A DNA stretch of 24,000 bases. Source: Anaerolineae bacterium. Lineage in GTDB: Bacteria > Chloroflexota > Anaerolineae > Anaerolineales > Villigracilaceae. Positions 1 through 10,913 of this stretch are shown here, piece after piece. Both the position numbers and the translations under genes were made by a program. The first letter of the stretch is position 1. The number at the start of each line of letters is the position of its first letter. Location: the NCBI GenBank assembly GCA_003484265.1, contig DNDO01000049.1, positions 1 through 24,000 of the forward strand, written 5' to 3'. The notes under the pieces are model-generated. The model was given only the letters and a program-made list of their open reading frames with translations, ran no database searches and was not told the origin of the DNA.

Positions 1-373
1 GTACAATTCTCTTGTTCGGCTTGAACTCTGTTGGAGGAGGAGATAACCTGCGAGACAAAAACCACCACCATAATCCTGCAAGGACTGTTTCCACTACGAA
101 GAAAGTATATTCTTCAATGGGAACATATCCGAGAACAATTCCTGTCACCAGGTCGGGGTTGTAAGACCAGACGCCTGTCGCAACGAGATAATTGTCCCAC
201 GGAGTGGTGTATGCGACCGCAAGAAAAACATGGATGCCGATGGCGATCCATACCGCACGTCCATTGCGAAAACCTTGAATCTGTTTACGATTCCTGTTAT
301 CCCTTAGCGTGAGGGCAAGGAAAATTAGAATGGGGAAGAATAAAAAACGAAGTAAAAATCCGAAATAGGTCAT
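1..373 (-). CDS. Lycopene cyclase domain protein (CrtYc/CrtYd-type), N-terminal part only; gene continues past the left window edge
   Basis: Not in the ORF track because no stop lies in the window. Manual translation from ATG (complement of 371-373) gives MTYFGFLLRFLFFPILIFLALTL...AVAYTTPWDNYLVATGVWSYNPDLVTGIVLGYVPIEEYTFFVVETVLAGLWWWF. It is hydrophobic, and the TPWDNYLV...G.W.Y and PIEEY.FF motifs are typical of the small membrane lycopene cyclase domain family. It lies downstream of and co-directional with crtI and the P450. Confidence 0.72.
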   Translation of the reverse strand, partial: MTYFGFLLRFLFFPILIFLALTLRDNRNRKQIQGFRNGRAVWIAIGIHVFLAVAYTTPWDNYLVATGVWSYNPDLVTGIVLGYVPIEEYTFFVVETVLAGLWWWFLSRRLSPPPTEFKPNKRIV

Positions 374-445
374 TATGTTCCTCTGCCATCGCGAGGCGGT
401 GATCATCCGCCCGAAGCCATGGCCGTCAGCGAGTTATAGATTGCT

Positions 446-1714
446 TTATCCCAATCGGTGCTCACAATCACGGCTTGTTACTTTCATCATCACCCCAGGG
501 CGCGGTTCCAGCGTTGCACCCATGTGGGGATGGATCTTGTGATCGGCAAATTCAAATTTATATGTGCGAAGCAATTGTGCCAGCACAACTCGTGCCTCTG
601 CCTGACCGAACGCCGCACCGATGCACGTCCGTGGGCCGCCGCCGAAAGGCACATATGCGAATGGCGGTGTCTTTTGCCCGCGGGCAAAACGTTCGGGGCA
701 AAAGTTTTCAGCGTTCTCCCAGATTTCAGGGTCCCGGTGAGTGAGGTAGATGGAATAGAACATACGCTCATCTGTGGGGACTTTCCCTTCATTGAATTCC
801 ATCTCCTCAGCCACGCTCCGATTGCCGATGTGAATGGGCGGATACAAGCGGAGACTCTCCTTGATAACCTGGTCGAGCAATGGCGACTTTTCCATCGAAT
901 CCACTTCTTCGATTACGCGTTTATGAACATCTGGGTGCTGTCCAAGCAATACAAAAACCCATGCCAGAAGGGCAGTGGATGTGTCATGACCCGCAATGAG
1001 CATCGTTAACATCTGGTCGCGGATGATATCGTCTGTAAGATCGGCGTCAATGAGGTGTTGTAGCAAGTCTTGATTCTTGTCTGCCTTCTGCCTTCTGCGA
1101 TCTGCAATAATTCCATACAAATATTTATCCAATACGTTCAACGGTTTACGAAATCCAAACCGCGGCATTTTTCTCCACAAGATCCACATCCCCGGCGAGA
1201 TGTATTTGATGGCTTTGAGTATGGGCGTCCAGACAAGAGGAATGTCATCCCAAACATCTTTGCTGAATAAAGTGTCCATGATGATGAGCAGAGCGATCTT
1301 GCGCGACTCGACGAGCATATCTACAACATCACCGTCCTGCCATTTGGAGGTCACTCTCTCCGTGTGGGAGATGAATTTCGATGTGAACCCAGATAATTGA
1401 GAAGGGTGAAGCGGCGGCTCCATCAGTTTACGATAGAGGTCGTGTTCGTCGCCGTCCACGATTAATACACCTTGACGCAATAGATCAGTCACAGGGTCGG
1501 TGTTGCGCCACAGAACCTTATCGCGTTCAGTGACCAACACTTTGCGATTCGCTTCAGGACCAAAGACCACATACGGGCGAAATCCAGGCAGTGGAATTTG
1601 AAAGAAGCGGCCGATGTGTGATGCCATCACTTTCAACGGACCCAGCGGCGAGCCTTCCTTGATGAGCGCTCGCAGTGCCGCACGCCCTAAATCTGGGGAA
1701 ATACTTTTTGCCAT
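446..1714 (-). CDS. Cytochrome P450 monooxygenase (possibly carotenoid/retinoid modifying; substrate not determinable)
   Basis: 422 aa. Heme-thiolate signature FGGGPRTCIGAAFG, I-helix AGHDTS, and ExxR in KESLRLYPP. The start is only 3 nt after the photolyase stop. Confidence 0.9.
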   Translation of the reverse strand: MAKSISPDLGRAALRALIKEGSPLGPLKVMASHIGRFFQIPLPGFRPYVVFGPEANRKVLVTERDKVLWRNTDPVTDLLRQGVLIVDGDEHDLYRKLMEPPLHPSQLSGFTSKFISHTERVTSKWQDGDVVDMLVESRKIALLIIMDTLFSKDVWDDIPLVWTPILKAIKYISPGMWILWRKMPRFGFRKPLNVLDKYLYGIIADRRRQKADKNQDLLQHLIDADLTDDIIRDQMLTMLIAGHDTSTALLAWVFVLLGQHPDVHKRVIEEVDSMEKSPLLDQVIKESLRLYPPIHIGNRSVAEEMEFNEGKVPTDERMFYSIYLTHRDPEIWENAENFCPERFARGQKTPPFAYVPFGGGPRTCIGAAFGQAEARVVLAQLLRTYKFEFADHKIHPHMGATLEPRPGVMMKVTSRDCEHRLG

Positions 1715-1717
1715 TAA

Positions 1718-3067
1718 CTATTCTTTGACACTTTCTTTTGAAAATTTATACGCTTGCAATGTTCTTTCTTTATCACGCTCGATGATCGGCTTTTCAGGGT
1801 AACCTTTTGCTTTGATTCCTTTTTCCCACGGCGCGTGAATGACCTTTGCATCCACATCGCGCAGTTCGGGAATCCAATTGCGGATGTAATCCCCGTTCGG
1901 GTCGAACTTTTTACTTTGCAGGGTTGGGTTGAAAATTCTAAAATAGGGCGCGGCATCGGTGCCTGTGCCAGCCGTCCATTGCCAGCCGCCATTATTTGCG
2001 GCGATGTCGCCATCGAGCAGGTTTTCCAGGAACCATGCCTCGCCCCAACGCCAGTCGATCAGCAGGTCTTTGACCAAATAAGACGCAACAATCATGCGCG
2101 CACGGTTGTGCATCCAGCCGGAACCTTTAAGTTGACGCATTCCTGCGTCGACAATCGGCACGCCGGTCCTGCCATCTTTCCATGCCTGGAATTCAGTCCG
2201 GTCATTACGCCAGGCGATATTTGCCAGCGATGATTTGAATGAAGTCTTTGCAATGTGCGGGAAGTGATACAGGATCTGGATATAGAACTCGCGCCAGATC
2301 AATTCATTCAACCAGACTTCAGCCCCCGCCCCCTTTTTTTGACTGATAGCCTGCCGCGCTTCACTGACAGCCTGTCTCAGCCCGAGCATTCCAAACCGCA
2401 GATACGGTGAAAGTGAGGATGTGCCATCCAGATCCATGCGGTTGCGGTCTTCGCCATAGGCATGAATTTTTCTGAATAGGAATTCTTCCAGCCGAACGAG
2501 CGCTTCCTTTTCACCCGCAGGAAAAAGGGGGTCCGCTTGGAATGGCGGCAGATGCCCGGACGTGAGCTTAAACGGTGTATTGATTTTTTCAGGTGCAGGG
2601 TAAAGTTCCAACTTTGATGGAAGTTTTGTCTTCCATATTTTTGAGTATGGTGTGTACACGGTATATGGTTTCCCATCCGCTTTGAGAACTTTATTTGGGT
2701 GGTGTACGGTTTGCCCGCTGACGAGGCTCAGGGGGAGATGATTTTTGATTTCCAGGTCCCGTTTACGGGCGTAAGGGGTGAAATCTTCCTCGGCAAATAT
2801 CTGTTTGGCATTAGTCTCTTGTATTAATTGACGTAATACATTTAGCGGTTTTCCCGTACGAATTACGAGATATGATTGATGTTTACGTAAATTTTTGTCA
2901 AGCGCGTCTAAACCTGCGTAAAGAAAGTCCTTCCGACGCGGAGACTGGGAGGAAAAGGCTGGATCGAGGATAAAGACGGGCAGGACGGATCCAACTTTGA
3001 GCGCGGAATGAAGCGCAGCGTTATCTGTCAGCCGCAAGTCACGTCGGATCCACCAGATCGCAGTCAT
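1718..3067 (-). CDS. phrB: Deoxyribodipyrimidine (CPD) photolyase / cryptochrome-photolyase family
   Basis: 449 aa. N-terminal WWIRRDLRLTDNAAL. C-terminal FAD-binding block DGDIAANNGGWQWTAGTGTDAAPYFRIFNPTLQSKKFDP. Its ATG overlaps the stop of the upstream small membrane gene (ATGA, 3064-3067). Confidence 0.93.
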   Translation of the reverse strand: MTAIWWIRRDLRLTDNAALHSALKVGSVLPVFILDPAFSSQSPRRKDFLYAGLDALDKNLRKHQSYLVIRTGKPLNVLRQLIQETNAKQIFAEEDFTPYARKRDLEIKNHLPLSLVSGQTVHHPNKVLKADGKPYTVYTPYSKIWKTKLPSKLELYPAPEKINTPFKLTSGHLPPFQADPLFPAGEKEALVRLEEFLFRKIHAYGEDRNRMDLDGTSSLSPYLRFGMLGLRQAVSEARQAISQKKGAGAEVWLNELIWREFYIQILYHFPHIAKTSFKSSLANIAWRNDRTEFQAWKDGRTGVPIVDAGMRQLKGSGWMHNRARMIVASYLVKDLLIDWRWGEAWFLENLLDGDIAANNGGWQWTAGTGTDAAPYFRIFNPTLQSKKFDPNGDYIRNWIPELRDVDAKVIHAPWEKGIKAKGYPEKPIIERDKERTLQAYKFSKESVKE

Positions 3068-3411
3068 GCCGGTATCACCAGAATGATACCGAACACTACC
3101 TCCACAATGAGGCTAATGATGTTCGACGAGACCGCCGATTTATCTACCACCATGGAAACCCCGCGCACCAGGGCGATGGCGAGATAGGTGATGCCAAGCA
3201 TCAGATACGCAGCAGGTGCATCGAGCGCCAACGGGACTGCTCCCAAAGCGATGAACACGCCTCCGAGAATTGAACGGATTTCTGTGATACCGCGTCCGCC
3301 AACGGGTTGCAGACCGGTAAAGGCTGTGATGGCTGTCGGCTTGATCAGAGAATACAAGCCCGTGAGTATGGTTGCAATGGCAGCGATTATGTGCATAATT
3401 TGAATGATCAT
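3064..3411 (-). CDS. Small integral membrane protein (DUF4345-like, about 4 TM)
   Basis: 115 aa and almost entirely hydrophobic helices. AGGAAAA SD upstream of the ATG. Translationally coupled to the photolyase. The family assignment is from memory of the pattern only. Confidence 0.6.
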   Translation of the reverse strand: MIIQIMHIIAAIATILTGLYSLIKPTAITAFTGLQPVGGRGITEIRSILGGVFIALGAVPLALDAPAAYLMLGITYLAIALVRGVSMVVDKSAVSSNIISLIVEVVFGIILVIPA

Positions 3412-3444
3412 AGGTTTTCCTAATTCTGAGTTCCTTATTGAATA

Positions 3445-4311
3445 TCAGAGTCGCGGGATTAATACAGGCGTTCTCTTTTTATATAACTCATAGTTTTCCT
3501 GTCCGCCCCATTTATTGTCTGCTTTTTTCTCAAGCTGAGGAACCCCACTAACGCGGGTAAGAAGCAATGCGACGAAGACAGGGGAAATCAGGGCAATCCA
3601 TTGCCAACCCTGCAGAACAGGCAGGGCGATTATTGACACGCCGACCCAGAGGACGATCTCACCAAAATAATTGGGATGGCGGGATCGCGACCATAATCCT
3701 GTTTGAATGAACCTGCCTTTATTGGCTGGATTTGCGTTAAATTTACTTTTCTGAGAGTCGGCAATAACCTCGAACGTAAAACCGATAGCCCAAACCAGAA
3801 AACCAACGACGGCAAACAGGTCTAATTCTTTTCTGGCGGTCGTTGTGATGGCAACCAGCGCCGCCGCCATTGTGAACGTTACCCACAAGCCCTGGATGGT
3901 CCATACATTTAGGAAGCGGATAAATGATGGTTTGAGTTCATCGAATCGATCATCCTTGCCCGCTTTTTTTATCCTGCCAAACAGGAATGTTCCGAGTCGG
4001 ATTGCCCAGATAATGACAAGACCTGATAAAAGGATTGATCTGGGGTCTACACCTGTGCTGAAAAAGAGGGCGAGAATGATTCCAGAAATATAAGTGATGC
4101 TTCCCGTCAGGTCAAAAAATTTTTCGGTTTGCCGCAAATATGCGGGGATAAATGCCAGCCACTGGATCATAAATACCATCCCAACCAACAAGGCGAATAA
4201 TGGAATGCCAGCTATAGAAGTTCCATTCTGGCTGCCTGCCCAGGCGACCAAAGCGCCGATCAATATCAAGATGGGAAATGTAAGTAGTGCATTACGATCT
4301 GATTTCTTCAT
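3445..4311 (-). CDS. DUF1295 / steroid-5-alpha-reductase-like polytopic membrane protein
   Basis: The track ORF extends to 4569, but that N-terminus overlaps the upstream gene. Start re-set to MKKSDRNALL (ATG = complement of 4309-4311), preceded by an AGGAA SD. 288 aa, multi-TM, with the C-terminal signature WSRSRHPNYFGEIVLWVG typical of DUF1295/ICMT-like reductase-methyltransferase folds. Confidence 0.8.
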   Translation of the reverse strand: MKKSDRNALLTFPILILIGALVAWAGSQNGTSIAGIPLFALLVGMVFMIQWLAFIPAYLRQTEKFFDLTGSITYISGIILALFFSTGVDPRSILLSGLVIIWAIRLGTFLFGRIKKAGKDDRFDELKPSFIRFLNVWTIQGLWVTFTMAAALVAITTTARKELDLFAVVGFLVWAIGFTFEVIADSQKSKFNANPANKGRFIQTGLWSRSRHPNYFGEIVLWVGVSIIALPVLQGWQWIALISPVFVALLLTRVSGVPQLEKKADNKWGGQENYELYKKRTPVLIPRL

Positions 4312-4334
4312 GGGAAATTTCCTTTTGAAGCGGG

Positions 4335-5009
4335 TTAAAACCCGCGTCTTTGACCCTGCCATGGGGCGGGGGAATCGTTTTTGAACTCTTCCACGCTGGG
4401 ACCACTCAGAGTGACAAGCCGCCAGGCCCCATAGATGTAACTGACGATGAGCAGGACGATGGTCGCAGGCCAGCCTGTCAATGCGTTGACCATCGCCAAC
4501 TGGCTTGTGTCCTGCCCTTGAAAGAGCGTCACCTGCCACCACAAACGAAGTGTGAAAAAGACAGTCCATACCAGAGTGACTTCAGTATAAGCAGGACGTA
4601 CCTGGGCATGCCAATACCATTCCAGGGGCCAACGGCGGGCGAAGTAGCTTGTCCATGCCACCATGGGTTTGCGGATAAGCAGGCTGACCAGTGCAAGCGC
4701 GATCGTGATTCCTCCGTTGACAATGCCCGGGAGAAAGTAGCCTTCAGAACGTCCGAGCAGAAGCGCGAGTGCAAATGCCAGCGCGACACTTCCCATGCCT
4801 GCAAGGGCATACATTAGAGATTGTTTGCGGCGCAAGCGCATGATGGCTATCACGATTGCTGTACCGAGCGCTCCGTACATTGCGGCTTGGAAACCAACTA
4901 GTCCATTTAATAACAAAAATAAAACCGGCGGCAGGATGGTATCCAGTACGCCAACTCCATTGGTGACGGAGCGGAGTTCCTCCATCAGTTCGCGTGTTTT
5001 GTCACGCAT
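4335..5009 (-). CDS. Polytopic membrane protein (DUF3159-like)
   Basis: 224 aa. The pattern LDTILPPVLFLLLN ... MRLRRKQS ... YFLPGIVNGG ... IRKPMVAW resembles DUF3159 as I recall it. The start overlaps the stop of the upstream gene by 8 nt. Confidence 0.62.
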   Translation of the reverse strand: MRDKTRELMEELRSVTNGVGVLDTILPPVLFLLLNGLVGFQAAMYGALGTAIVIAIMRLRRKQSLMYALAGMGSVALAFALALLLGRSEGYFLPGIVNGGITIALALVSLLIRKPMVAWTSYFARRWPLEWYWHAQVRPAYTEVTLVWTVFFTLRLWWQVTLFQGQDTSQLAMVNALTGWPATIVLLIVSYIYGAWRLVTLSGPSVEEFKNDSPAPWQGQRRGF

Positions 5010-5328
5010 GCTTTCCCAGCCAGAATTTGCGCCAGTCGTTTTCGCTGTTTTGGAGGGTAATGAAAGCGTAGAGACTGCCCGCGAGGAATCCGAGGATCAT
5101 CACGGCAGCTGTCCATACGATCGCCACAGGCAGGGATTTCTCGCGGAAGATGATCCATCCTGAGAAAAGCACGAAGCCCGTGTATAAGTCTACGAGTGAG
5201 ACGATGCCCCAGGGCATGGATGCCAACTGTTTTCCTTCGGCGAAAAAGTCACCCACGATGAAGCCATAAATCAGGGCGGCAGCCATTGCAAGCACACCCA
5301 GAGCGGATACGATTTTTGCATTGCGCAT
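5002..5328 (-). CDS. Small membrane protein (DUF1475-like, about 3-4 TM)
   Basis: Start re-set to MRNAKIVSALGVL (ATG = complement of 5326-5328), giving 108 aa. The motif MPWGIVSLVDLYTGFVLFSGWIIFRE is recalled as DUF1475-like. It begins 31 nt downstream of the heliorhodopsin stop. Confidence 0.58.
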   Translation of the reverse strand: MRNAKIVSALGVLAMAAALIYGFIVGDFFAEGKQLASMPWGIVSLVDLYTGFVLFSGWIIFREKSLPVAIVWTAAVMILGFLAGSLYAFITLQNSENDWRKFWLGKHA

Positions 5329-5359
5329 ATTGTTTTTCACTTTGTACGTCAGATTCTTC

Positions 5360-6139
5360 CTATACCGGTGCCAGCGTGCCAGCAAAGATCATCCAGGCTA
5401 ATACTGTTTTTGCAACCAAACTGAGAATTACGAAAGCCCGTTCTCCATATAAGTAGTTTTTCCATGGTCCGACCTTTTTATATTGCAGGTACATGTTGAC
5501 TGCGAAAGTATTGAAGAACACGAACAGGGTTGGGATGATGGCGTACACAAAGGCAGGCGGCTTGGCTTCCCCGCCGGATGCAATGGAGCCAAAGAAGTAG
5601 ATGAATATCACCAGCCAGGGGATAATTCCAGCGATCGAGCCGAAAGTGAATGGCGACCAATCCGGTTTTGCTCTCCCTTGATTAAGGCTCTCCATCAATA
5701 AGCCGAACAGGTTCATCATGGCATTCAATCCAAACATAAGGATGATGGCGCCCAAATCCCAGACGCCCGCCAGCATGCCTATTAGTACAATCATAAGAGA
5801 TGAACTAAGGGCATATTCGTAAAAACGAATGGGATTTTTTCCCTGCTGTAGGTTTTCCACATAGCTTGTGTAACCGATGGTGGAAAGATAGAAGTGGGCG
5901 ATAGCGGAAAGCAGCAGGAAGATGGCAACCGATGGACCGAGAGGCAGTTCGTAGAACAGGTCAGCCACTGGGGAAAGTGAGAAGGTGGATGTATTGAAAC
6001 TAAGGAAGTTCGTAAATACAGGGTAGGTAGTATCGTTGCTGACGACCCACATAAATACTCCCTGAATCAAATGTAAGAATCCCATGATCAGGTTGAATCG
6101 TCGAAGTTTTGAGAAAGTTTGATCGGTTTGGACAGGCAT
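5360..6139 (-). CDS. Heliorhodopsin (7-TM retinal protein, inverted-topology rhodopsin family)
   Basis: 259 aa and colinear with heliorhodopsin 48C12 as recalled. RFYEYALSSSLMIVLI matches RWVEYSLSSSVMIVLI. YGERAFVILSLVAKTVLAWMIFAGTLAPV matches RGERAYIVLSLVAKSALAWQIFSGTLIPA. FGLNAMMNLFG, GSIAGIIPW and FVFFNTFAVNMYLQYKK also match. Putative Schiff-base Lys K244 (codon 5408-5410), counterion Glu E108 (5816-5818), and conserved His23 and His82. AAGGAG SD 8 nt upstream of the ATG. Confidence 0.9.
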   Translation of the reverse strand: MPVQTDQTFSKLRRFNLIMGFLHLIQGVFMWVVSNDTTYPVFTNFLSFNTSTFSLSPVADLFYELPLGPSVAIFLLLSAIAHFYLSTIGYTSYVENLQQGKNPIRFYEYALSSSLMIVLIGMLAGVWDLGAIILMFGLNAMMNLFGLLMESLNQGRAKPDWSPFTFGSIAGIIPWLVIFIYFFGSIASGGEAKPPAFVYAIIPTLFVFFNTFAVNMYLQYKKVGPWKNYLYGERAFVILSLVAKTVLAWMIFAGTLAPV

Positions 6140-6191
6140 TAATATAGCTCCTTTTGCTTATTGGTTTATGTAAATAGAAAGTGTTTTTCGA

Positions 6192-7490
6192 TTAGGCGAA
6201 TTTTTGGGACTCGAGAGTCAACCAGTCGCTTATTTCATTTCCATCTTCATTCATCACTCCTTTAACAGAGACGGCGTACATTTCCAGGTAGATCGGTAAT
6301 ATGGCGGTGGATACGTTTTGGGTGATGAGTAAGTTGCTCAACCACTGCATGTCTGTGGAGAGAAAATTGATATCGCCGAGTTTGAGGGTTGCGATCAGGC
6401 TGTCGCCGAGGAATTGGTTGGCAGTGTCGAGAAAGTCGATGGATTGACCCTGCGATGCAATAATGTGGGATAAGGTGGTTTCGATCTGAGTTCTGTGTTG
6501 ATGAAATTCATCTGCGAGGAGAAGGGTACCGTTTTTGGCGGTTTCCTCTTTTACCATAGGGACAGAGTTTACGATCAGGTTTTCGATGGCGGGGACAGCA
6601 CTTCCGATGCTGTTGCCGAGAAAATGGGCAGGGATCCGTTTTTCAAGTCCGTTGATGTCATTGAAAACCCTGCCTCCAAATGCTGATTGAATCCCTTTTT
6701 TATTTAGTGTTCGCGCCATCTCGCGCAAGTGGACGGCGTTCACCAGGGTCTGCGCGGAGAGCACAACCAGTTTGGGCTTGGTGGTTTTGACCGTTTCATC
6801 GATGCGGGCTGTCGGTACGTTTGCGCCAAGATAGACCACATTCCAGCCGCGTCTTCGTAATAAGAGATTGGTCAGTAACAATGGGAAGGCGTGCCATTCA
6901 TTAGGCGGGCAGGCAAGCACGATGGTCTCGTTGCGGGTTGGAGAAGGGGTTGCGCTTATGAGTGCTTCGAGCCTGCGTGTGGCGAGGCCCGATGCGAAGT
7001 GTTCCTGTTGGACGGACGCCGAGCCTTTGTGCCAGTATTCACCGACTTCGTATAATCCGCGCATGATGATCTCTGTGCAGGCTATCTCAATGGAATGAGC
7101 GGCAAATGCCTGATTCAATATTTGTTCCGCGGCGACCGTATTATAGTTGAAGCAAGCAGTCAGCCACTCTCTGCGCAAGGCTTCGATGTTCAAGTTGTCA
7201 ACAGGGATATTGTTTTTTGGTTGCGAATCAGCCAGAGGGTCTGTACCCGAAGCGATGGTTTCGTTCCACAAGTCTACTGCGCGGGAGATCGAAAGTCCTT
7301 CCTCCTGTTTTGCGAGCAGCCATTTGATCGTCGCGATATCGCGATCGGAATACAGGCGATGCCCGCCTGATGTGCGCTGTGGAACGGGGAGACCGTAGCG
7401 GCGTTCCCATGCACGTAGTGTGTCGGCGGCAATGCCCGTTTGGTTGAGCACGACTTTGATATTGTAGGTGGGTGTCTGGCTGATTATCAT
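6192..7490 (-). CDS. litR: MerR-family, B12-binding light-responsive transcription regulator (LitR/CarH type) with an extra C-terminal domain
   Basis: 432 aa. N-terminal MerR HTH (YNIKVVLNQTGIAADTLRAWERRYGLP...GGHRLYSDRDI). W153-x9-E163-H164 (EYWHKGSASVQQEHF) is the CarH-type AdoB12 cap motif. Rossmann B12-binding domain with E198-W-H200-A-F-P203 in place of ExHxxG. About 125 residues follow the B12 domain, which canonical ~300-aa CarH lacks. Confidence 0.87.
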   Translation of the reverse strand: MIISQTPTYNIKVVLNQTGIAADTLRAWERRYGLPVPQRTSGGHRLYSDRDIATIKWLLAKQEEGLSISRAVDLWNETIASGTDPLADSQPKNNIPVDNLNIEALRREWLTACFNYNTVAAEQILNQAFAAHSIEIACTEIIMRGLYEVGEYWHKGSASVQQEHFASGLATRRLEALISATPSPTRNETIVLACPPNEWHAFPLLLTNLLLRRRGWNVVYLGANVPTARIDETVKTTKPKLVVLSAQTLVNAVHLREMARTLNKKGIQSAFGGRVFNDINGLEKRIPAHFLGNSIGSAVPAIENLIVNSVPMVKEETAKNGTLLLADEFHQHRTQIETTLSHIIASQGQSIDFLDTANQFLGDSLIATLKLGDINFLSTDMQWLSNLLITQNVSTAILPIYLEMYAVSVKGVMNEDGNEISDWLTLESQKFA

Positions 7491-7512
7491 TTATCTTTCC
7501 AATTATTTGAGT

Positions 7513-9045
7513 TTAGACGCGTGCGGCAGCAACCGCATTTGCCATATTTTGAACCGATATTGTATCTTTTTCTTTGAGGATTCTCTCGGTCGTCAGGCGG
7601 GCAGATAACAGCACGATGGGAAGCCCCGTGCCTGGATGGGTGGACGCACCAGCGAAGTAGAGATTTTTATATTTCTTATGACGGTTCTGCGGACGCAAAT
7701 AGCCAACCTGCAAGAAGTTGTGACTGAGACCAAACGCAGAGCCCTTCTCAAGGTTAAAACGTTCTTTCCAAACTTTGGGTTGATACACGATCTCGAACTT
7801 GATATGTTCTCTGAGATCATCCACGCCTAATTCCGTAGCGAGGCGTTTGAACACGATTTCGCGAGCACGTTTTACCAGCGCATCCCAGTCCTGTTCACTG
7901 CGTGCATCAAGGTGACCGACAGGCATCAACACGTAGAGAGTATCCTGACCTTTTGGAGCGGCGGCTTTATCAGTGCGTGTTGGCGCATGGACATAGAAAG
8001 ACGGCACATCAGGTAATGTGTGATCCTCGAATATTCGGTCAAACGAAGCCTTGTAATCGCCGCCGAGGAATACGTTGTGATGCGCGATCTGTTCATACTC
8101 CTTGTCCACGCCCCAGTAGAACATTATCGTGGAGCAGGTGTAGAGTTTGTTTTCGAGTTTTTTTGATTCATTTACATCGGGCAATAATTCTTTATAAATA
8201 TAGGGCAGGTCTGCATTGCCGATGAAGATGTCGGCTGTTAATTCTCGTCCATCATTTAACTGAACACCTTCAACTCTTGAACCTGCAACTTTCATACGTT
8301 TTACAGGTGAGTTGTAGATGAACTTGACACCCAGTTTTTCAGCAACCTTGACCAACGCCTGAATGCCCGCGTACATCCCGCCCATGGGGTACCAAACACC
8401 TTCGGCTAATTCCGTGTATTGCAAAAGGGAGTATGTGGCAGGCGCATCGTAAGGGCTGAGACCAAGATACATATTCTGGAAAGTGAATGCTGCTTTGAGC
8501 CTTTCATCTTTGAAGTATTTACCGACATTGGCAAAATGTTTCTGTAATGCTTTGAGGTTGAATATGAGGGGCAGATTACGCAGTGATAGGTACTCGAAGA
8601 TGTTGTAAAAATTGCGCCCCACAAACTTCTCAACGGATACCTTGTAATGTTTGCCGCCTTCCGCGATGTAATTCAGGAAGCCCGTGAAGGCGGTCTTCTC
8701 AACCTTCTCCAGTTGTTCCTGCATTTTTCCGATGTCCGACGTCAACTCCAATTTCAAGCCGTCGATAAAATGGACTTTATATGTGGGGTCGATGCGGCGC
8801 AGGTCGAGGTGGTCATTCATTTTCTCGCCGAGGGAGGCAAAGGTTTCCTCCCAAATTTCGGGCATCAAGAACAGGGTTGGACCAATATCGAAGCGGTGAC
8901 CGTCGCGTACGATCTGGTTGGCGCGCCCGCCAGGGGTCGCCTCCTTTTCGAGCACTGTCACGTCATATCCGTTTTTGGCGAGGCGGGCGGCAGTGGCAAT
9001 CCCGCCAATGCCTGCCCCGATCACGATTGCAGTTCGTTTTTTCAT
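7513..9045 (-). CDS. crtI: Phytoene desaturase
   Basis: 510 aa. N-terminal FAD fold IVIGAGIGGIATAARLAKNGYDVTVLEKEATPGGRA. C-terminal NLYFAGASTHPGTGLPIVLLSA, typical of CrtI. AAGGAAG SD. First gene after the divergent promoter. Confidence 0.92.
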   Translation of the reverse strand: MKKRTAIVIGAGIGGIATAARLAKNGYDVTVLEKEATPGGRANQIVRDGHRFDIGPTLFLMPEIWEETFASLGEKMNDHLDLRRIDPTYKVHFIDGLKLELTSDIGKMQEQLEKVEKTAFTGFLNYIAEGGKHYKVSVEKFVGRNFYNIFEYLSLRNLPLIFNLKALQKHFANVGKYFKDERLKAAFTFQNMYLGLSPYDAPATYSLLQYTELAEGVWYPMGGMYAGIQALVKVAEKLGVKFIYNSPVKRMKVAGSRVEGVQLNDGRELTADIFIGNADLPYIYKELLPDVNESKKLENKLYTCSTIMFYWGVDKEYEQIAHHNVFLGGDYKASFDRIFEDHTLPDVPSFYVHAPTRTDKAAAPKGQDTLYVLMPVGHLDARSEQDWDALVKRAREIVFKRLATELGVDDLREHIKFEIVYQPKVWKERFNLEKGSAFGLSHNFLQVGYLRPQNRHKKYKNLYFAGASTHPGTGLPIVLLSARLTTERILKEKDTISVQNMANAVAAARV

Positions 9046-9103
9046 GTTTCTTCCTTAGCTCCCCTCTCTCGTTTTAGGAAAGGGGTTGGGTGTCATTTCA
9101 AGC

Positions 9104-9131
9104 ATTATACACAATGCACAGAATTTGTCAA
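9104..9131 (-). promoter_or_regulatory. Sigma-70-type promoter reading toward crtI: -35 TTGACA (complement of 9126-9131), 16-bp spacer, -10 TATAAT (complement of 9104-9109)
   Basis: Read directly from the reverse complement. Both hexamers match the consensus exactly. The implied leader to the crtI ATG (9045) is about 50 nt. Confidence 0.7.
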
Positions 9132-9145
9132 GATTATCTTGACAA
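9125..9145. promoter_or_regulatory. Perfect inverted repeat TTGTCAAGA-TTA-TCTTGACAA; candidate operator covering both divergent -35 boxes
   Basis: 9-bp arms with a 3-bp spacer and no mismatches. Each arm contains a TTGACA, one per strand. Confidence 0.75.
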
Positions 9146-9167
9146 AAGAACACAAAACATGTACAAT
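9139..9167 (+). promoter_or_regulatory. Sigma-70-type promoter reading toward crtB: -35 TTGACA (9139-9144), 17-bp spacer, -10 TACAAT (9162-9167)
   Basis: Read directly from the sequence. GGAGG SD at 9185-9189 and crtB ATG at 9194. Confidence 0.7.
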
Positions 9168-9193
9168 GAATCAATTCTACCTTTGGAGGTCAA

Positions 9194-10138
9194 ATGCAGG
9201 TACAAGCGAAATGGGAAAACCAACTACTCGATTTGGCGGGGAAAATCCCGCACTCATCAACCCGCCCCTTCTTTTCATATTGGGCTGGCGATGCCGCACT
9301 TCGCAAAGCCTACAATCTCGCCGAAAAGATCACGGCGAGACAGAGCAAATCCTTCCATTTTGCATCCTCGCTCCTCCCAGAAGAGAAACGTTTAGCCGTT
9401 CGCGCCTTGTATGCCTTTTGCCGCACAGTGGATGACATTGTGGATACGTCCACGGACGATACGCGAGAGTCCCAACTCGATTACTGGCGTGGGATGGTGG
9501 AGCACGCCTCTTTTCTCGACGGGGATCTGGTTGCCGCTGCATGGGCTGATACCTTATCCCGTTACCAAATTCCCCGGCACTATGCCCTTCAATTGATAGA
9601 CGGCGTCAACCGCGACTTGACCCAGTCCCGGTATCAAACCTTCGAAGAGCTTGCCACATATTGCTACGGTGTGGCATCTACGGTTGGATTGATGAGCATG
9701 TACATAATTGGTTTCAACAGCAATAAAGCAGTTCCGTACGCGATCAAACTCGGTGTCGCCCTCCAAATGACCAACATCCTGCGCGATGTGGGGGAGGACT
9801 TCCAAAATGGACGGCTCTATTTGCCGCGTGAAGAACTCGCCTACTACGGTATTCGTGAACAGGATATCGTTGAGGGGCATGTCACCGACAACTGGCGACA
9901 GTTCATGAAGTTCCAGATCGAACGTACACGTCAGCTTTATGAAGATTCATGGGAAGGCGTAAAGATGCTTGAACGCGAAGGACAATTTGCCATCGGCGCC
10001 GCATCCGTTTTTTATCAGGGTATCTTGGATGAGATCGAAAAGAACGACTATGATGTATTTACGCAAAGAGCGAATTTATCCGCATTGAGCAAACTAAGAA
10101 AAGTTCCAGCCTTATGGTTGAAGATCAAAGCTTTGTAA
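9194..10138 (+). CDS. crtB: Phytoene synthase
   Basis: 314 aa. SKSFHFASSLLP, the Asp-rich motif YAFCRTVDDIVD, and the second motif LQMTNILRDVGEDFQNGRLYLPREEL. Confidence 0.93.
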   Translation: MQVQAKWENQLLDLAGKIPHSSTRPFFSYWAGDAALRKAYNLAEKITARQSKSFHFASSLLPEEKRLAVRALYAFCRTVDDIVDTSTDDTRESQLDYWRGMVEHASFLDGDLVAAAWADTLSRYQIPRHYALQLIDGVNRDLTQSRYQTFEELATYCYGVASTVGLMSMYIIGFNSNKAVPYAIKLGVALQMTNILRDVGEDFQNGRLYLPREELAYYGIREQDIVEGHVTDNWRQFMKFQIERTRQLYEDSWEGVKMLEREGQFAIGAASVFYQGILDEIEKNDYDVFTQRANLSALSKLRKVPALWLKIKAL

Positions 10139-10163
10139 ATCGAAGCATAATAGGAGAAATAAA

Positions 10164-10913
10164 TTGAAAGACACGTTACGACAAATCACCAATCTTGTTA
10201 CCGTCATCATTGCGCTGACGATTAACATCCTGGCCTCTGCTTTGCCCCTCAACGGACAGAACACAGGCGAAATTTCAGACCGCTTCGAAGTGTTTTTCGT
10301 CCCCGCTGGTTATGTATTTTTAATCTGGTTCTTCATCTTCGCCGGCTGGATCGCATTTTCCATTTTCCAGTCTCTGCCGGCACAAAAGGAAAAGCCCCGT
10401 CTACGCAGACTTGGTTATTTATTTGCCCTGAGCAATATTGCCAACGCAGGCTGGTTATTCATGTGGCACTACAATTATTTTGGATTGAGCGTGATCTTCA
10501 TGCTGTCCTTGCTGGGACTGCTCATCGCCTGCTACCTGCGTCTCGATGTGAACCGCTCTGGCGCCAAAGGTGCCGAATGGTGGTCGGTTGATTTGCCCTT
10601 CAGCGTCTATCTCGGCTGGATTACCGTAGCTACTGTCGCAAACATCACAGCCTGGTTGTCCTTTGTCAACTGGAACGGCCTGGGTATCTCAGAGCCGATC
10701 TGGGCGGTTATCATGCTTGCGGTCGCGTCCATCCTCGGTTTTGGCATGGCATTTACGAGGCGGGACGCAGGCTATCTGCTCGTCCTTGTCTGGGCATTTA
10801 TCGGCATCGCAGTTAAGCAGACACCTGCTCTAGTAGTCACCGGTGCATGGATCGCGGCAGGTGCCATGCTCGTGCTTGCCTTGTACAACTTGATCCGCCG
10901 CCAATCCGCATAG
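10164..10913 (+). CDS. Trp-rich polytopic membrane protein, TspO/MBR-related (long form)
   Basis: 249 aa with a TTG start and an AGGAG SD at 10152-10156. Motifs PAGYVFLIWFFIFAGW, NAGWLFMWHYNYF and VYLGWITVATVANITAWL resemble the tryptophan-rich sensory protein family. It begins 25 nt after crtB. Confidence 0.5.
   Translation: MKDTLRQITNLVTVIIALTINILASALPLNGQNTGEISDRFEVFFVPAGYVFLIWFFIFAGWIAFSIFQSLPAQKEKPRLRRLGYLFALSNIANAGWLFMWHYNYFGLSVIFMLSLLGLLIACYLRLDVNRSGAKGAEWWSVDLPFSVYLGWITVATVANITAWLSFVNWNGLGISEPIWAVIMLAVASILGFGMAFTRRDAGYLLVLVWAFIGIAVKQTPALVVTGAWIAAGAMLVLALYNLIRRQSA

What the first reader, a model, noticed from the sequence alone, without database searches (positions are those of the whole stretch)
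3064..5328. Four uncharacterised membrane proteins lie between heliorhodopsin and photolyase and may be heliorhodopsin partners
Downstream of the heliorhodopsin stop come a 108-aa DUF1475-like protein (31-nt gap), a 224-aa DUF3159-like protein (8-nt overlap), a 288-aa DUF1295 reductase/methyltransferase-like protein and a 115-aa DUF4345-like protein. The last of these overlaps the photolyase ATG (ATGA). Heliorhodopsins are thought to signal or modulate partners rather than pump ions, and a membrane-embedded partner is a plausible missing component. I also recall DUF1295-type genes recurring near photolyase and cfa genes in light and singlet-oxygen regulons, but I cannot verify that here.
Basis: inference. 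Interest (0 to 1): 0.65.

Follow-up and report, generated by a model that had tools for sequence, protein, structure and literature searches.

The report
Membrane-protein block of a light operon
The four small membrane-protein genes behind the heliorhodopsin gene are real, but they are regular members of a vitamin-B12 light-switch (CarH-type) photoprotection operon that most relatives carry without any heliorhodopsin, so they are not specific heliorhodopsin partners.

Summary
Observation confirmed.

Interpretation mostly not supported. All four lie on the minus strand in one ten-gene array: crtI, MerR-B12 (CarH-like) regulator, heliorhodopsin (HeR), A (half-length DUF1475), B (DUF3159), C (DUF1295), D (DUF4345), photolyase, P450, lycopene cyclase.

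- **Block without HeR.** 56 species-level loci anchored on A have at least 5 kb on both sides. C lies within 5 kb in 86%, the regulator in 84%, B in 77%, DegV in 75%, D in 71% and HeR in only 16%.
- **Close relatives.** At least six congeners without a detectable HeR gene keep the same operon.
- **HeR without the block.** In 40 other Chloroflexota HeR loci, A, B and D never occur. DUF2177, the published HeR neighbour, lies next to HeR in 7.
- **HeR is optional.** Its presence needs 5-8 gains or losses on the regulator tree, and no residue of A-D tracks it.

C is best read as an NAD(P)H-dependent membrane C=C reductase. Its family also sits in proteobacterial sigmaE-ChrR singlet-oxygen clusters.

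The published HeR-DegV-DUF1295 link covers C. This scan reached the same reading earlier on other genomes. What is modestly new is the conserved A-B / C-D module.

The parts
9104..9131 (-). Candidate promoter of the ten-gene array (TTGACA-16-TATAAT, 12 of 12), back to back with the crtB promoter and overlapping a perfect palindrome
   Evidence: the only 12/12 and 11/12 promoter matches in 1-10200. Sequence. An earlier scan note reads the palindrome as CarH-type operators; that was not re-tested here.
7513..9045 (-). crtI (phytoene desaturase), first gene of the array
   Evidence: Amino_oxidase 1.9e-28. 82-88% identical in nearly all syntenic loci that hold it.
6192..7490 (-). MerR-HTH plus B12-binding regulator (CarH/LitR-like, 432 aa)
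   Evidence: MerR_1, B12-binding_2, B12-binding. (NCBIfam CarH 2.4e-42, below the equivalog cut-off). Lies within 5 kb upstream of the block in 84% of complete loci.
5360..6139 (-). Heliorhodopsin, an optional member of the operon
   Evidence: PF18761, 1.3e-98. Present in 11 of 80 A-anchored loci. 5-8 gains or losses on the regulator tree.
5002..5328 (-). A: 108-aa three-helix membrane protein, half-length DUF1475
   Evidence: 799 cluster representatives, nearly all stand-alone proteins of about 110 aa. (relatives in prasinophyte algae).
4335..5009 (-). B: 224-aa polytopic membrane protein, DUF3159; overlaps the end of A by 8 nt
   Evidence: A is followed directly by B in all 63 loci that hold B, median gap 14 nt. 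The model has no match among solved structures.
3445..4311 (-). C: 288-aa DUF1295 protein, predicted NAD(P)H-dependent membrane C=C reductase
   Evidence: Model pLDDT 85. Best folds are SRD5A2 and PbSRD5A. The profile hits only NADPH reductases among PDB sequences.
3064..3411 (-). D: 115-aa four-helix membrane protein, DUF4345; its stop overlaps the photolyase start (ATGA)
   Evidence: NCBIfam relative AGROH133_08824 at 4.9e-16, below cut-off.
1718..3067 (-). CPD photolyase
446..1714 (-). Cytochrome P450
2..406 (-). Lycopene cyclase domain protein (runs off the window)
   Evidence: weak Pfam hit. 60-84% identical in nearly all syntenic loci that hold it.

Best explanation
The four genes are core structural genes of a CarH/LitR-type photoprotection operon of Anaerolineales. 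They are not accessories of heliorhodopsin.

**Shown.**
- One co-directional, tightly spaced ten-gene array lies behind the only strong promoter.
- A MerR-B12 regulator gene heads it.
- The A-B and C-D gene pairs are conserved in this operon across dozens of species, mostly without HeR.

**Inferred, from what is established for CarH (not tested here).**
- In the dark the B12-bound repressor sits on the divergent crtI/crtB promoters.
- Light releases it, and carotenoid genes, photolyase and the membrane block are made together.

**Inferred function.**
- C is an NAD(P)H-dependent, membrane-embedded C=C reductase acting on a lipid. The substrate could be a fatty-acyl or oxidised lipid, less likely an isoprenoid.
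- A, B and D are small polytopic proteins with invariant charged residues. They probably work in the same membrane-lipid handling step, which in most relatives also includes a DegV fatty-acid-binding protein.
- The module is the Chloroflexota counterpart of the DUF1295/DUF2177/cfa gene sets that proteobacteria place under sigmaE-ChrR and that Chlamydomonas induces with singlet oxygen.
- HeR is an optional extra gene in the same light-induced transcript.
For: **Operon anatomy.**
- Gaps of -8 to 33 nt between neighbouring genes from HeR to photolyase.
- The only 12/12 promoter lies at 9131-9104, and no convincing minus-strand terminator lies inside the array.
- The regulator has MerR and B12-binding domains and a CarH profile hit.

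**Conservation without HeR.**
- Congeners without a detectable HeR gene (G019, G023, G005, G001, G009, G011) keep regulator-[DegV]-A,B,C,D-...-photolyase.
- In 80 A-anchored loci: B 63, C 63, regulator 61, DegV 60, D 53, HeR 11.
- In 56 complete loci: C 86%, regulator 84%, B 77%, DegV 75%, D 71%, HeR 16%.

**HeR side.**
- 0 of 40 phylum HeR loci hold A, B or D, while DUF2177 is adjacent in 7 of 40.
- HeR needs 5-8 state changes on the regulator tree.
- No residue in A-D is specific to HeR-carrying operons.

**C as a reductase.**
- PF06966 at 215 bits.
- The model's best solved folds are SRD5A2 and PbSRD5A, ahead of ICMT.
- The profile matches only sterol and steroid reductases in the PDB and aligns GLWsrsRHPNYFGE with their cofactor motif.
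- A DUF1295-like fungal enzyme is a proven ene-reductase (PMC8597850).

**Photo-oxidative context of the family.**
- DUF1295 lies beside ChrR, an ECF sigma factor, cfa, DUF2177 and DUF1365 on Shinella and Rhizobium replicons.
- DUF1295, DUF2177, DUF1365 and CFA genes are induced by singlet oxygen through SAK1 in Chlamydomonas (PMC4067076).
- In relatives, DegV, an AhpC-like protein, an SDR and a Rieske protein share the operon.
Against: - No expression data.
- The regulator scores far below NCBIfam's CarH equivalog cut-off (145 against 400 bits) and has an extra C-terminal domain.
- The exact operator palindrome is kept in only 17 of 41 related intergenic regions.
- No substrate is known for any DUF1295 protein of bacteria.
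- A, B and D have no characterised relative, and B's model is only moderately confident (pTM 0.52).
- This window's operon lacks DegV, although three copies lie elsewhere in the genome.
- The 80 loci are the closest relatives of A (69-80% identity), so the counts describe Anaerolineales, not the whole family.
- Kin are not independent, so the percentages overstate the number of independent observations.
Confidence: 0.6

Rival explanations
1. The four proteins, or some of them, are physical or signalling partners of heliorhodopsin. Light-activated HeR binds them in the membrane and modulates their activity.
For: - Direct adjacency and probable co-transcription here.
- When HeR occurs in an Anaerolineales genome that has the operon, it lies inside it in 4 of 6 genomes: G000, G017, G025 and G039, against G024 and G083.
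- In 9 of 11 cases it sits just upstream of DegV/A.
- An independent lineage has DUF2177-HeR-DegV-(179-aa membrane protein)-DUF1295.
- The published neighbour analysis links HeR with DegV, DUF2177 and DUF1295.
- HeRs are known to act through partner proteins such as photolyase, glutamine synthetase and an ABC transporter (titles listed).
Against: - 84% of complete block loci have no HeR within 5 kb.
- At least six congeners without a detectable HeR gene keep the block.
- A, B and D were found in 0 of 40 other HeR loci.
- The A family was found in only 8 of 401 phylum genomes against 54 with HeR, and in one of the three genomes with both the genes lie 380 kb apart.
- No residue in A-D correlates with HeR presence.
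- Shared CarH regulation explains the linkage equally well. It also brings in photolyase and carotenoid genes.
Confidence: 0.08
2. The block belongs to carotenoid metabolism. C saturates or otherwise modifies a carotenoid or its precursor. A, B and D help to insert, bind or export carotenoids in the membrane.
For: - In the window the block lies between crtI on one side and P450 plus lycopene cyclase on the other, opposite crtB.
- The same arrangement is seen in about half of related loci (crtI 43, crtB 42, P450 34, cyclase 33 of 80).
- Relatives of C (SRD5A3, sterol reductases) act on isoprenoid-derived lipids. This rests on general knowledge of the superfamily; only the fold and profile matches come.
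Against: - The module also occurs with no crt gene or regulator within 10 kb, as in L075, L079, L081, L092 and L111.
- It usually carries a fatty-acid-binding DegV next to it.
- DUF1295 in proteobacteria sits with fatty-acid-modifying cfa-family genes, not crt genes.
Confidence: 0.15
3. The four are unrelated housekeeping membrane proteins that merely happen to lie in this array.
For: - None of A, B and D has a known function.
- The Pfam scores of A and D are marginal.
- In two Acidobacteriota loci A stands alone among unrelated genes.
Against: - Tight spacing and overlaps.
- A is followed by B in 63 of 63 loci that hold B, and C by D in 39.
- The set stays together although gene order changes: A-B-C-D, C-D-A-B and C'-A-D.
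- The set stays together with the regulator across species whose synonymous sites are saturated.
Confidence: 0.05

Closest known systems
Published heliorhodopsin gene neighbourhood HeR-DegV-DUF2177-DUF1295 (Chazan et al., bioRxiv 10.1101/2021.02.16.431466)
   Same: HeR lies close to a DUF1295 gene, in a setting with photolyase and a cobalamin-binding regulator. That paper lists these near HeRs and also near proton-pump rhodopsins. The full triad was re-found here in another Chloroflexota family.
   Different: - This window's operon has no DegV, and no DUF2177 was found in the genome.
- Three other small membrane families (half-DUF1475, DUF3159, DUF4345) stand there instead. None of them is named in that paper's main text.
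- They follow the operon, not HeR.
CarH/LitR B12-dependent light-induced carotenoid and photolyase regulons (Thermus, Myxococcus, Bacillus)
   Same: A MerR-HTH plus B12-binding regulator sits next to crtB and crtI with divergent promoters, and photolyase and a P450 lie in the same unit.
   Different: - The regulator is 432 aa with an extra C-terminal part and scores below the CarH equivalog cut-off.
- To my knowledge the described CarH regulons are not reported to include a DUF1295, DUF3159, DUF4345 or half-DUF1475 block or a heliorhodopsin. This was not checked here.
SigmaE-ChrR singlet-oxygen regulon of Alphaproteobacteria, and the SAK1 regulon of Chlamydomonas
   Same: - They hold the same uncharacterised membrane families: DUF1295, plus DUF2177 in some relatives of this window.
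- They also hold SDR, TspO-type and lipid-modifying genes, induced by light-derived oxidative stress.
   Different: - The sensor is different: an anti-sigma factor or a phosphoprotein instead of a B12 photoreceptor.
- The cfa, UfaD and UfaO (DUF1365) furan-fatty-acid genes are not in this window.
- DegV, A, B and D are not annotated by name in the proteobacterial clusters viewed; their unnamed 'hypothetical protein' genes were not compared.
Steroid 5-alpha-reductase / sterol reductase superfamily (SRD5A2 7BW1, PbSRD5A 7C83, MaSR1 4QUV)
   Same: - C's model has this fold (probability 1.0, TM-score 0.48-0.55).
- Its C-terminal half aligns with their NADPH-binding motif.
   Different: - About 15% identity.
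- Foldseek E-values are only 0.05-0.08.
- Catalytic residues were not mapped and the substrate is unknown.

Membership tests
DUF1295 (PF06966), for C | Score over Pfam's gathering cut-off across the whole profile | tested here: met
   214.8 bits against a cut-off of 20.4; profile positions 3-235 of 235.
NADPH-dependent membrane reductases (SRD5A / sterol reductase), for C | Shared fold and C-terminal cofactor-binding motif | tested here: met
   - Foldseek top hits are 7bw1 and 7c83 (probability 1.0, TM-score 0.48-0.55).
- The profile hits 4quv at 2.8e-5, 7c83 at 9e-5, 9l5r and 7bw1, with RHPNYFGE aligned to RHMNYFGD and CPNYLGE.
NADPH-dependent membrane reductases (SRD5A / sterol reductase), for C | Catalytic proton-donor residues and NADPH-dependent C=C reduction | not testable with these tools
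   No structural superposition or assay was available. Pfam Steroid_dh passes its cut-off (26.7 against 22.6 bits), while ERG4_ERG24 does not (20.2 against 27).
Isoprenylcysteine carboxyl methyltransferase (ICMT), for C | Score over the curated cut-off of the equivalog model | tested here: not met
   - NCBIfam isopcys_mtase: 19.8 bits against a cut-off of 160.
- Pfam ICMT: 26 bits against 24, on 55 of 95 profile positions only.
- No ICMT sequence was hit by the profile in the PDB at E up to 10.
DUF3159 (PF11361), for B | Score over the gathering cut-off across the profile | tested here: met
   110.8 bits against 34.2; profile positions 6-179 of 188.
DUF1475 (PF07343), for A | Full-length match to the profile of about 236 positions | tested here: not met
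   - 25.5 bits passes the cut-off of 22.3, but only profile positions 133-216 of 236 are covered.
- A and nearly all of its listed relatives are stand-alone proteins of about 110 aa.
- NCBI names close relatives 'DUF1475 family protein'.
DUF4345 (PF14248), for D | Score over the gathering cut-off across the profile | tested here: met
   28.8 bits against 26.5 (marginal); profile positions 2-116 of 119.
CarH/LitR-type light-regulated operon | MerR HTH plus B12-binding domains in a regulator encoded with its target genes | tested here: met
   MerR_1, B12-binding_2 and B12-binding domains. The regulator gene lies within 5 kb upstream of the block in 47 of 56 complete loci.
CarH/LitR-type light-regulated operon | Membership of the regulator in the CarH equivalog; operator repeats at the promoter; light induction | tested here: inconclusive
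   - CarH model: 145 bits against a cut-off of 400.
- The palindrome over both -35 boxes was seen but is kept in only 17 of 41 relatives.
Published HeR-DegV-DUF2177-DUF1295 neighbourhood | All three partner families near the HeR gene | tested here: not met
   - DUF1295 is present.
- DegV is absent from the operon, with three copies elsewhere in the genome.
- DUF2177 was not found in the genome, which is 87% complete.
   - 0 of 40 other HeR loci hold them.
- The block is kept without HeR in 84% of complete loci.
- Positive control: DUF2177 lies next to HeR in 7 of 40 loci.

The most novel reading that the evidence does not exclude
DegV, DUF1295 and a changing set of small polytopic proteins (half-DUF1475, DUF3159, DUF4345, DUF2177) form one membrane-lipid repair or remodelling machine. 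Different sensors switch it on under light-derived oxidative stress: B12-CarH in Chloroflexota, sigmaE-ChrR in proteobacteria and SAK1 in green algae. Where a heliorhodopsin gene has been added, HeR gives that machine a second, direct light input.
Probability: 0.2. Interest if true: 0.65.

Novelty: new member of a known kind. Interest (0 to 1): 0.35.

Why it matters
**For heliorhodopsin.** Its function is still open, and gene neighbours are the main source of partner hypotheses. This case shows that adjacency to HeR can be produced by a shared light switch. Three of the four candidate 'partners' here follow the operon and not HeR. That spares a misdirected interaction screen and points it at DegV, DUF1295 and DUF2177 instead.

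**For the four families.** The work defines a compact, strongly conserved set of uncharacterised membrane proteins that very probably belongs to the light and singlet-oxygen response. One member (C) has a testable enzyme prediction.

Tried and rejected
- **Fusion search for A.** The profile search against 1.84 billion representatives gave 799 hits. Nearly all of the 150 listed are stand-alone proteins of about 110 aa. The longer ones inspected are algal proteins with N-terminal extensions or look like read-through artefacts, and none is fused to B, C, D or HeR.
- **Fold of B.** No solved structure matches it (best E 2.5).
- **Direct sequence search of C against the PDB.** No hit. Only the profile worked.
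- **D as the missing half of DUF1475.** D has no DUF1475 hit even at E up to 10.
- **Recent horizontal spread of HeR** as the reason for its 89-91% identity. Rejected: fourfold-degenerate sites are as saturated as in the neighbouring genes.
- **Residue-level co-variation of A-D with HeR presence.** Nothing consistent was found.
- **Context of A in two Acidobacteriota genomes.** Uninformative.
- **Conservation of the exact promoter palindrome.** Partial, 17 of 41, and left to the report on that feature.
- **Literature on A, B and D.** Searches for DUF3159, DUF4345, DUF1475 and VC0807 found no paper whose title or abstract is about these families; the five hits were not opened.

Full report
**1. 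Observation**

The minus strand of window 1-9045 carries ten co-directional genes:

| Gene | Coordinates |
|---|---|
| crtI | 9045..7513 |
| MerR-HTH/B12-binding regulator | 7490..6192 |
| heliorhodopsin (HeR) | 6139..5360 |
| A | 5328..5002 |
| B | 5009..4335 |
| C | 4311..3445 |
| D | 3411..3064 |
| photolyase | 3067..1718 |
| P450 | 1714..446 |
| lycopene cyclase domain gene | 406..2 |

- crtB lies divergently at 9194.
- The Pfam calls are also as written. A is DUF1475 at 1.4e-5, but on only the second half of that profile. B is DUF3159 at 9e-32. C is DUF1295 at 1.6e-63. D is DUF4345 at 1.3e-6.
- The only near-perfect promoter pair is the back-to-back one at 9104-9167.
- No convincing minus-strand terminator lies inside the array.

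**2. The natural experiment in close relatives**

The window lies in an 87%-complete MAG. Record titles of the closest loci place it among Anaerolineales near Candidatus Villigracilis.

- HeR was found in only 2 of 24 congeners. The orthologue of C was found in at least 13.
- I fetched the surroundings and searched them with all operon proteins.
- Congeners without a detectable HeR gene (G019, G023, G005, G001, G009, G011) carry the same operon with A, B, C and D. Gene order is A-B-C-D or C-D-A-B.
- In several of them a DegV fatty-acid-binding gene (PF02645, 1.4e-75) stands directly behind the regulator, in the slot where HeR stands here.

So the block does not depend on HeR.

**3. Wider sample anchored on the block**

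A profile of A found at least 597 loci among GTDB species genomes. The best 80 are almost all Anaerolineales.

Counts in those 80 loci:

| Gene | Loci (of 80) |
|---|---|
| B | 63 |
| C | 63 |
| regulator | 61 |
| DegV | 60 |
| D | 53 |
| crtI | 43 |
| crtB | 42 |
| photolyase | 41 |
| HeR | 11 |

Counts in the 56 loci with at least 5 kb on both sides of A, within 5 kb on the same strand:

| Gene | Share |
|---|---|
| C | 86% |
| regulator | 84% |
| B | 77% |
| DegV | 75% |
| D | 71% |
| HeR | 16% |

- A is followed directly by B in all 63 loci that hold B, with a median gap of 14 nt. C is followed by D in 39 loci.
- HeR, when present, sits between the regulator and DegV or A in 9 of 11 loci. 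In the other two it sits just before the photolyase group.
- On a tree of the regulator, the HeR label needs 8 changes, and at least 5 are forced by well-supported branches.
- HeR is the best-conserved protein of the operon, at 89-91% identity to the window's copy in 8 of the 11 HeR-carrying loci.
- Fourfold-degenerate sites are as saturated as in neighbouring genes. This reflects purifying selection, not recent transfer.
- No residue of A, B, C or D consistently separates operons with HeR from those without.

**4. Sample anchored on HeR**

- In an even draw of 401 Chloroflexota genomes, HeR occurs in 54 and the A family in 8, all in the window's own order.
- Of the three genomes with both, two have them adjacent and one has them 380 kb apart.
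- I fetched 40 further HeR loci with 9.5 kb on each side where the contig allowed, and searched them with profiles built from the operon proteins.
- Result: A, B and D in 0 of 40, DUF1295 in 5, DegV in 5, a MerR-B12 regulator in 6 and photolyase in 3.
- Three of these loci, in a family with small genomes, hold HeR, DegV and DUF1295 together. The one read in full runs DUF2177-HeR-DegV-(179-aa membrane protein)-DUF1295.
- As a positive control, a DUF2177 profile finds that family directly beside HeR in 7 of 40 loci. It finds it in only 1 of the 80 block-anchored loci.
- DUF2177 was not found in this genome.

These results reproduce the published neighbour analysis of thousands of HeR genes. That analysis singled out DegV, DUF2177 and, with them, DUF1295. 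It noted that photolyase and cobalamin-binding proteins are equally common near proton-pump rhodopsins (bioRxiv 10.1101/2021.02.16.431466).

**5. What the four proteins are**

*C (DUF1295).*
- The model is confident (pLDDT 85, pTM 0.84).
- Its best solved-structure matches are steroid 5-alpha-reductases 7BW1 and 7C83, followed by ICMT.
- A profile of the family hits only NADPH-dependent reductases among PDB sequences: MaSR1 4QUV, 7C83, 9L5R and 7BW1. The conserved GLWxxSRHPNYFGE aligns to their cofactor motif.
- The ICMT equivalog model is far below its cut-off.
- A fungal DUF1295-like protein is a proven ene-reductase (PMC8597850).
- I therefore read C as an NAD(P)H-dependent membrane C=C reductase. 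The substrate is unknown.

*A (half-length DUF1475).*
- It has three predicted helices and a strongly conserved PWGIVSLVDLYTGF...W..RE core.
- Its family has 799 representatives at 50% clustering. Nearly all of the 150 listed are stand-alone proteins of about 110 aa.
- It includes proteins of the green algae Micromonas, Pycnococcus and Pseudoscourfieldia.

*B (DUF3159).*
- It has about six helices and conserved ARRWPLxWYWH and GPSVEE motifs.
- Its model matches no solved fold.
- It weakly resembles NCBIfam's VC0807 family.

*D (DUF4345).*
- It has four helices with invariant Arg, Glu and Asp residues.
- It is a sub-threshold relative of AGROH133_08824. Deleting that gene changes the lipopolysaccharide of Agrobacterium.

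**6. Context of the families elsewhere**

- On Shinella and Rhizobium johnstonii replicons, DUF1295 lies within about 5 kb of an ECF sigma factor and its ChrR anti-sigma factor, directly behind them in Shinella. It is followed by a cfa-family gene, with DUF2177 close by in both. DUF1365 lies in the Shinella cluster, and an SDR, a lipocalin and TspO in the Rhizobium one.
- That regulon makes furan fatty acids in response to singlet oxygen (PMC7380195).
- In Chlamydomonas, DUF1295, DUF2177, DUF1365 and two CFA genes are among the SAK1-dependent genes induced by singlet oxygen (PMC4067076).
- In one Anaerolineales genome the module reads DUF2177-DegV-A-B-C with no regulator or HeR nearby.
- In relatives of the window, an AhpC-like protein, an SDR, a Rieske protein and a DICT-domain protein are further operon members.

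The common theme is membrane-lipid chemistry under light-derived oxidative stress.

**7. Verdict**

- For C the proposal reduces to an association that is already published.
- The best-supported reading is that the four are core genes of a B12/CarH-type light-induced photoprotection operon, in which HeR is an optional insert.
- The biochemical part (C as a lipid C=C reductase, with A, B and D as accessories of the same step) is inference.
- Two earlier follow-ups of this scan on other genomes reached the same operon-level reading. I arrived at it here from independent searches.
- The conserved A-B / C-D module and its reach into green algae are the modestly new elements.

Noticed in passing
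window 5329-6191, compared with L010 11918-12847, L011 4120-5058 and L012 7091-7930: The slot directly behind the MerR-B12 regulator holds heliorhodopsin here. In congeners without a detectable HeR gene it holds a DegV fatty-acid-binding gene. This window's operon has no DegV at all, although the genome has three DegV genes on other contigs (C172, C105, C102).
   Followed up: partly
window 5360-6139: Heliorhodopsin is the most conserved protein of the operon. It is 89-91% identical in 8 of the 11 HeR-carrying loci, whose regulator is only 41-64% identical and whose fourfold-degenerate sites are saturated. So it is under unusually strong purifying selection for an optional gene.
   Followed up: partly
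L031, L032, L033 (G024 contigs C27, C32, C36): One congener carries three heliorhodopsin copies, each 69% identical to the window's, on three contigs. None is near the block. One has a DUF2177 gene just upstream.
   Followed up: no
L122 9033-12425 (also L121 and L147): A small-genome Chloroflexota family has the cluster DUF2177-HeR-DegV-(179-aa membrane protein with no family)-DUF1295. The 179-aa protein stands where A and B stand in Anaerolineales.
   Followed up: partly
window 5002-5328 (A); proteins P0054, P0299, P0300: Relatives of A occur in prasinophyte green algae (Micromonas commoda, Pycnococcus provasolii, Pseudoscourfieldia marina) with N-terminal extensions that look like targeting peptides.
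   Followed up: partly
window 3064-3411 (D): D's nearest named relative is NCBIfam's AGROH133_08824 'phage infection protein' family (4.9e-16, below cut-off). Deleting that Agrobacterium gene gives altered lipopolysaccharide.
   Followed up: partly
L010 8305-9493, L012 3974-4342, L016 11421-11990, L034 7400-8068: In relatives, the stretch between D and the photolyase gene holds further genes that this window lacks. They are an AhpC/TSA-like protein, an SDR, a Rieske ferredoxin, a DICT-domain protein, an MFS-like transporter and a conserved 222-aa protein without any Pfam family. The 222-aa gene directly precedes the photolyase gene in 28 loci.
   Followed up: partly
L056, L067, L070, L082, L085, L104, L109, L113 and L026: In some operons the DUF1295 orthologue is replaced by a paralogue of only 32-39% identity, placed directly after DegV and before A or D. 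A DUF1295 gene of some kind is thus kept while its subtype changes.
   Followed up: no
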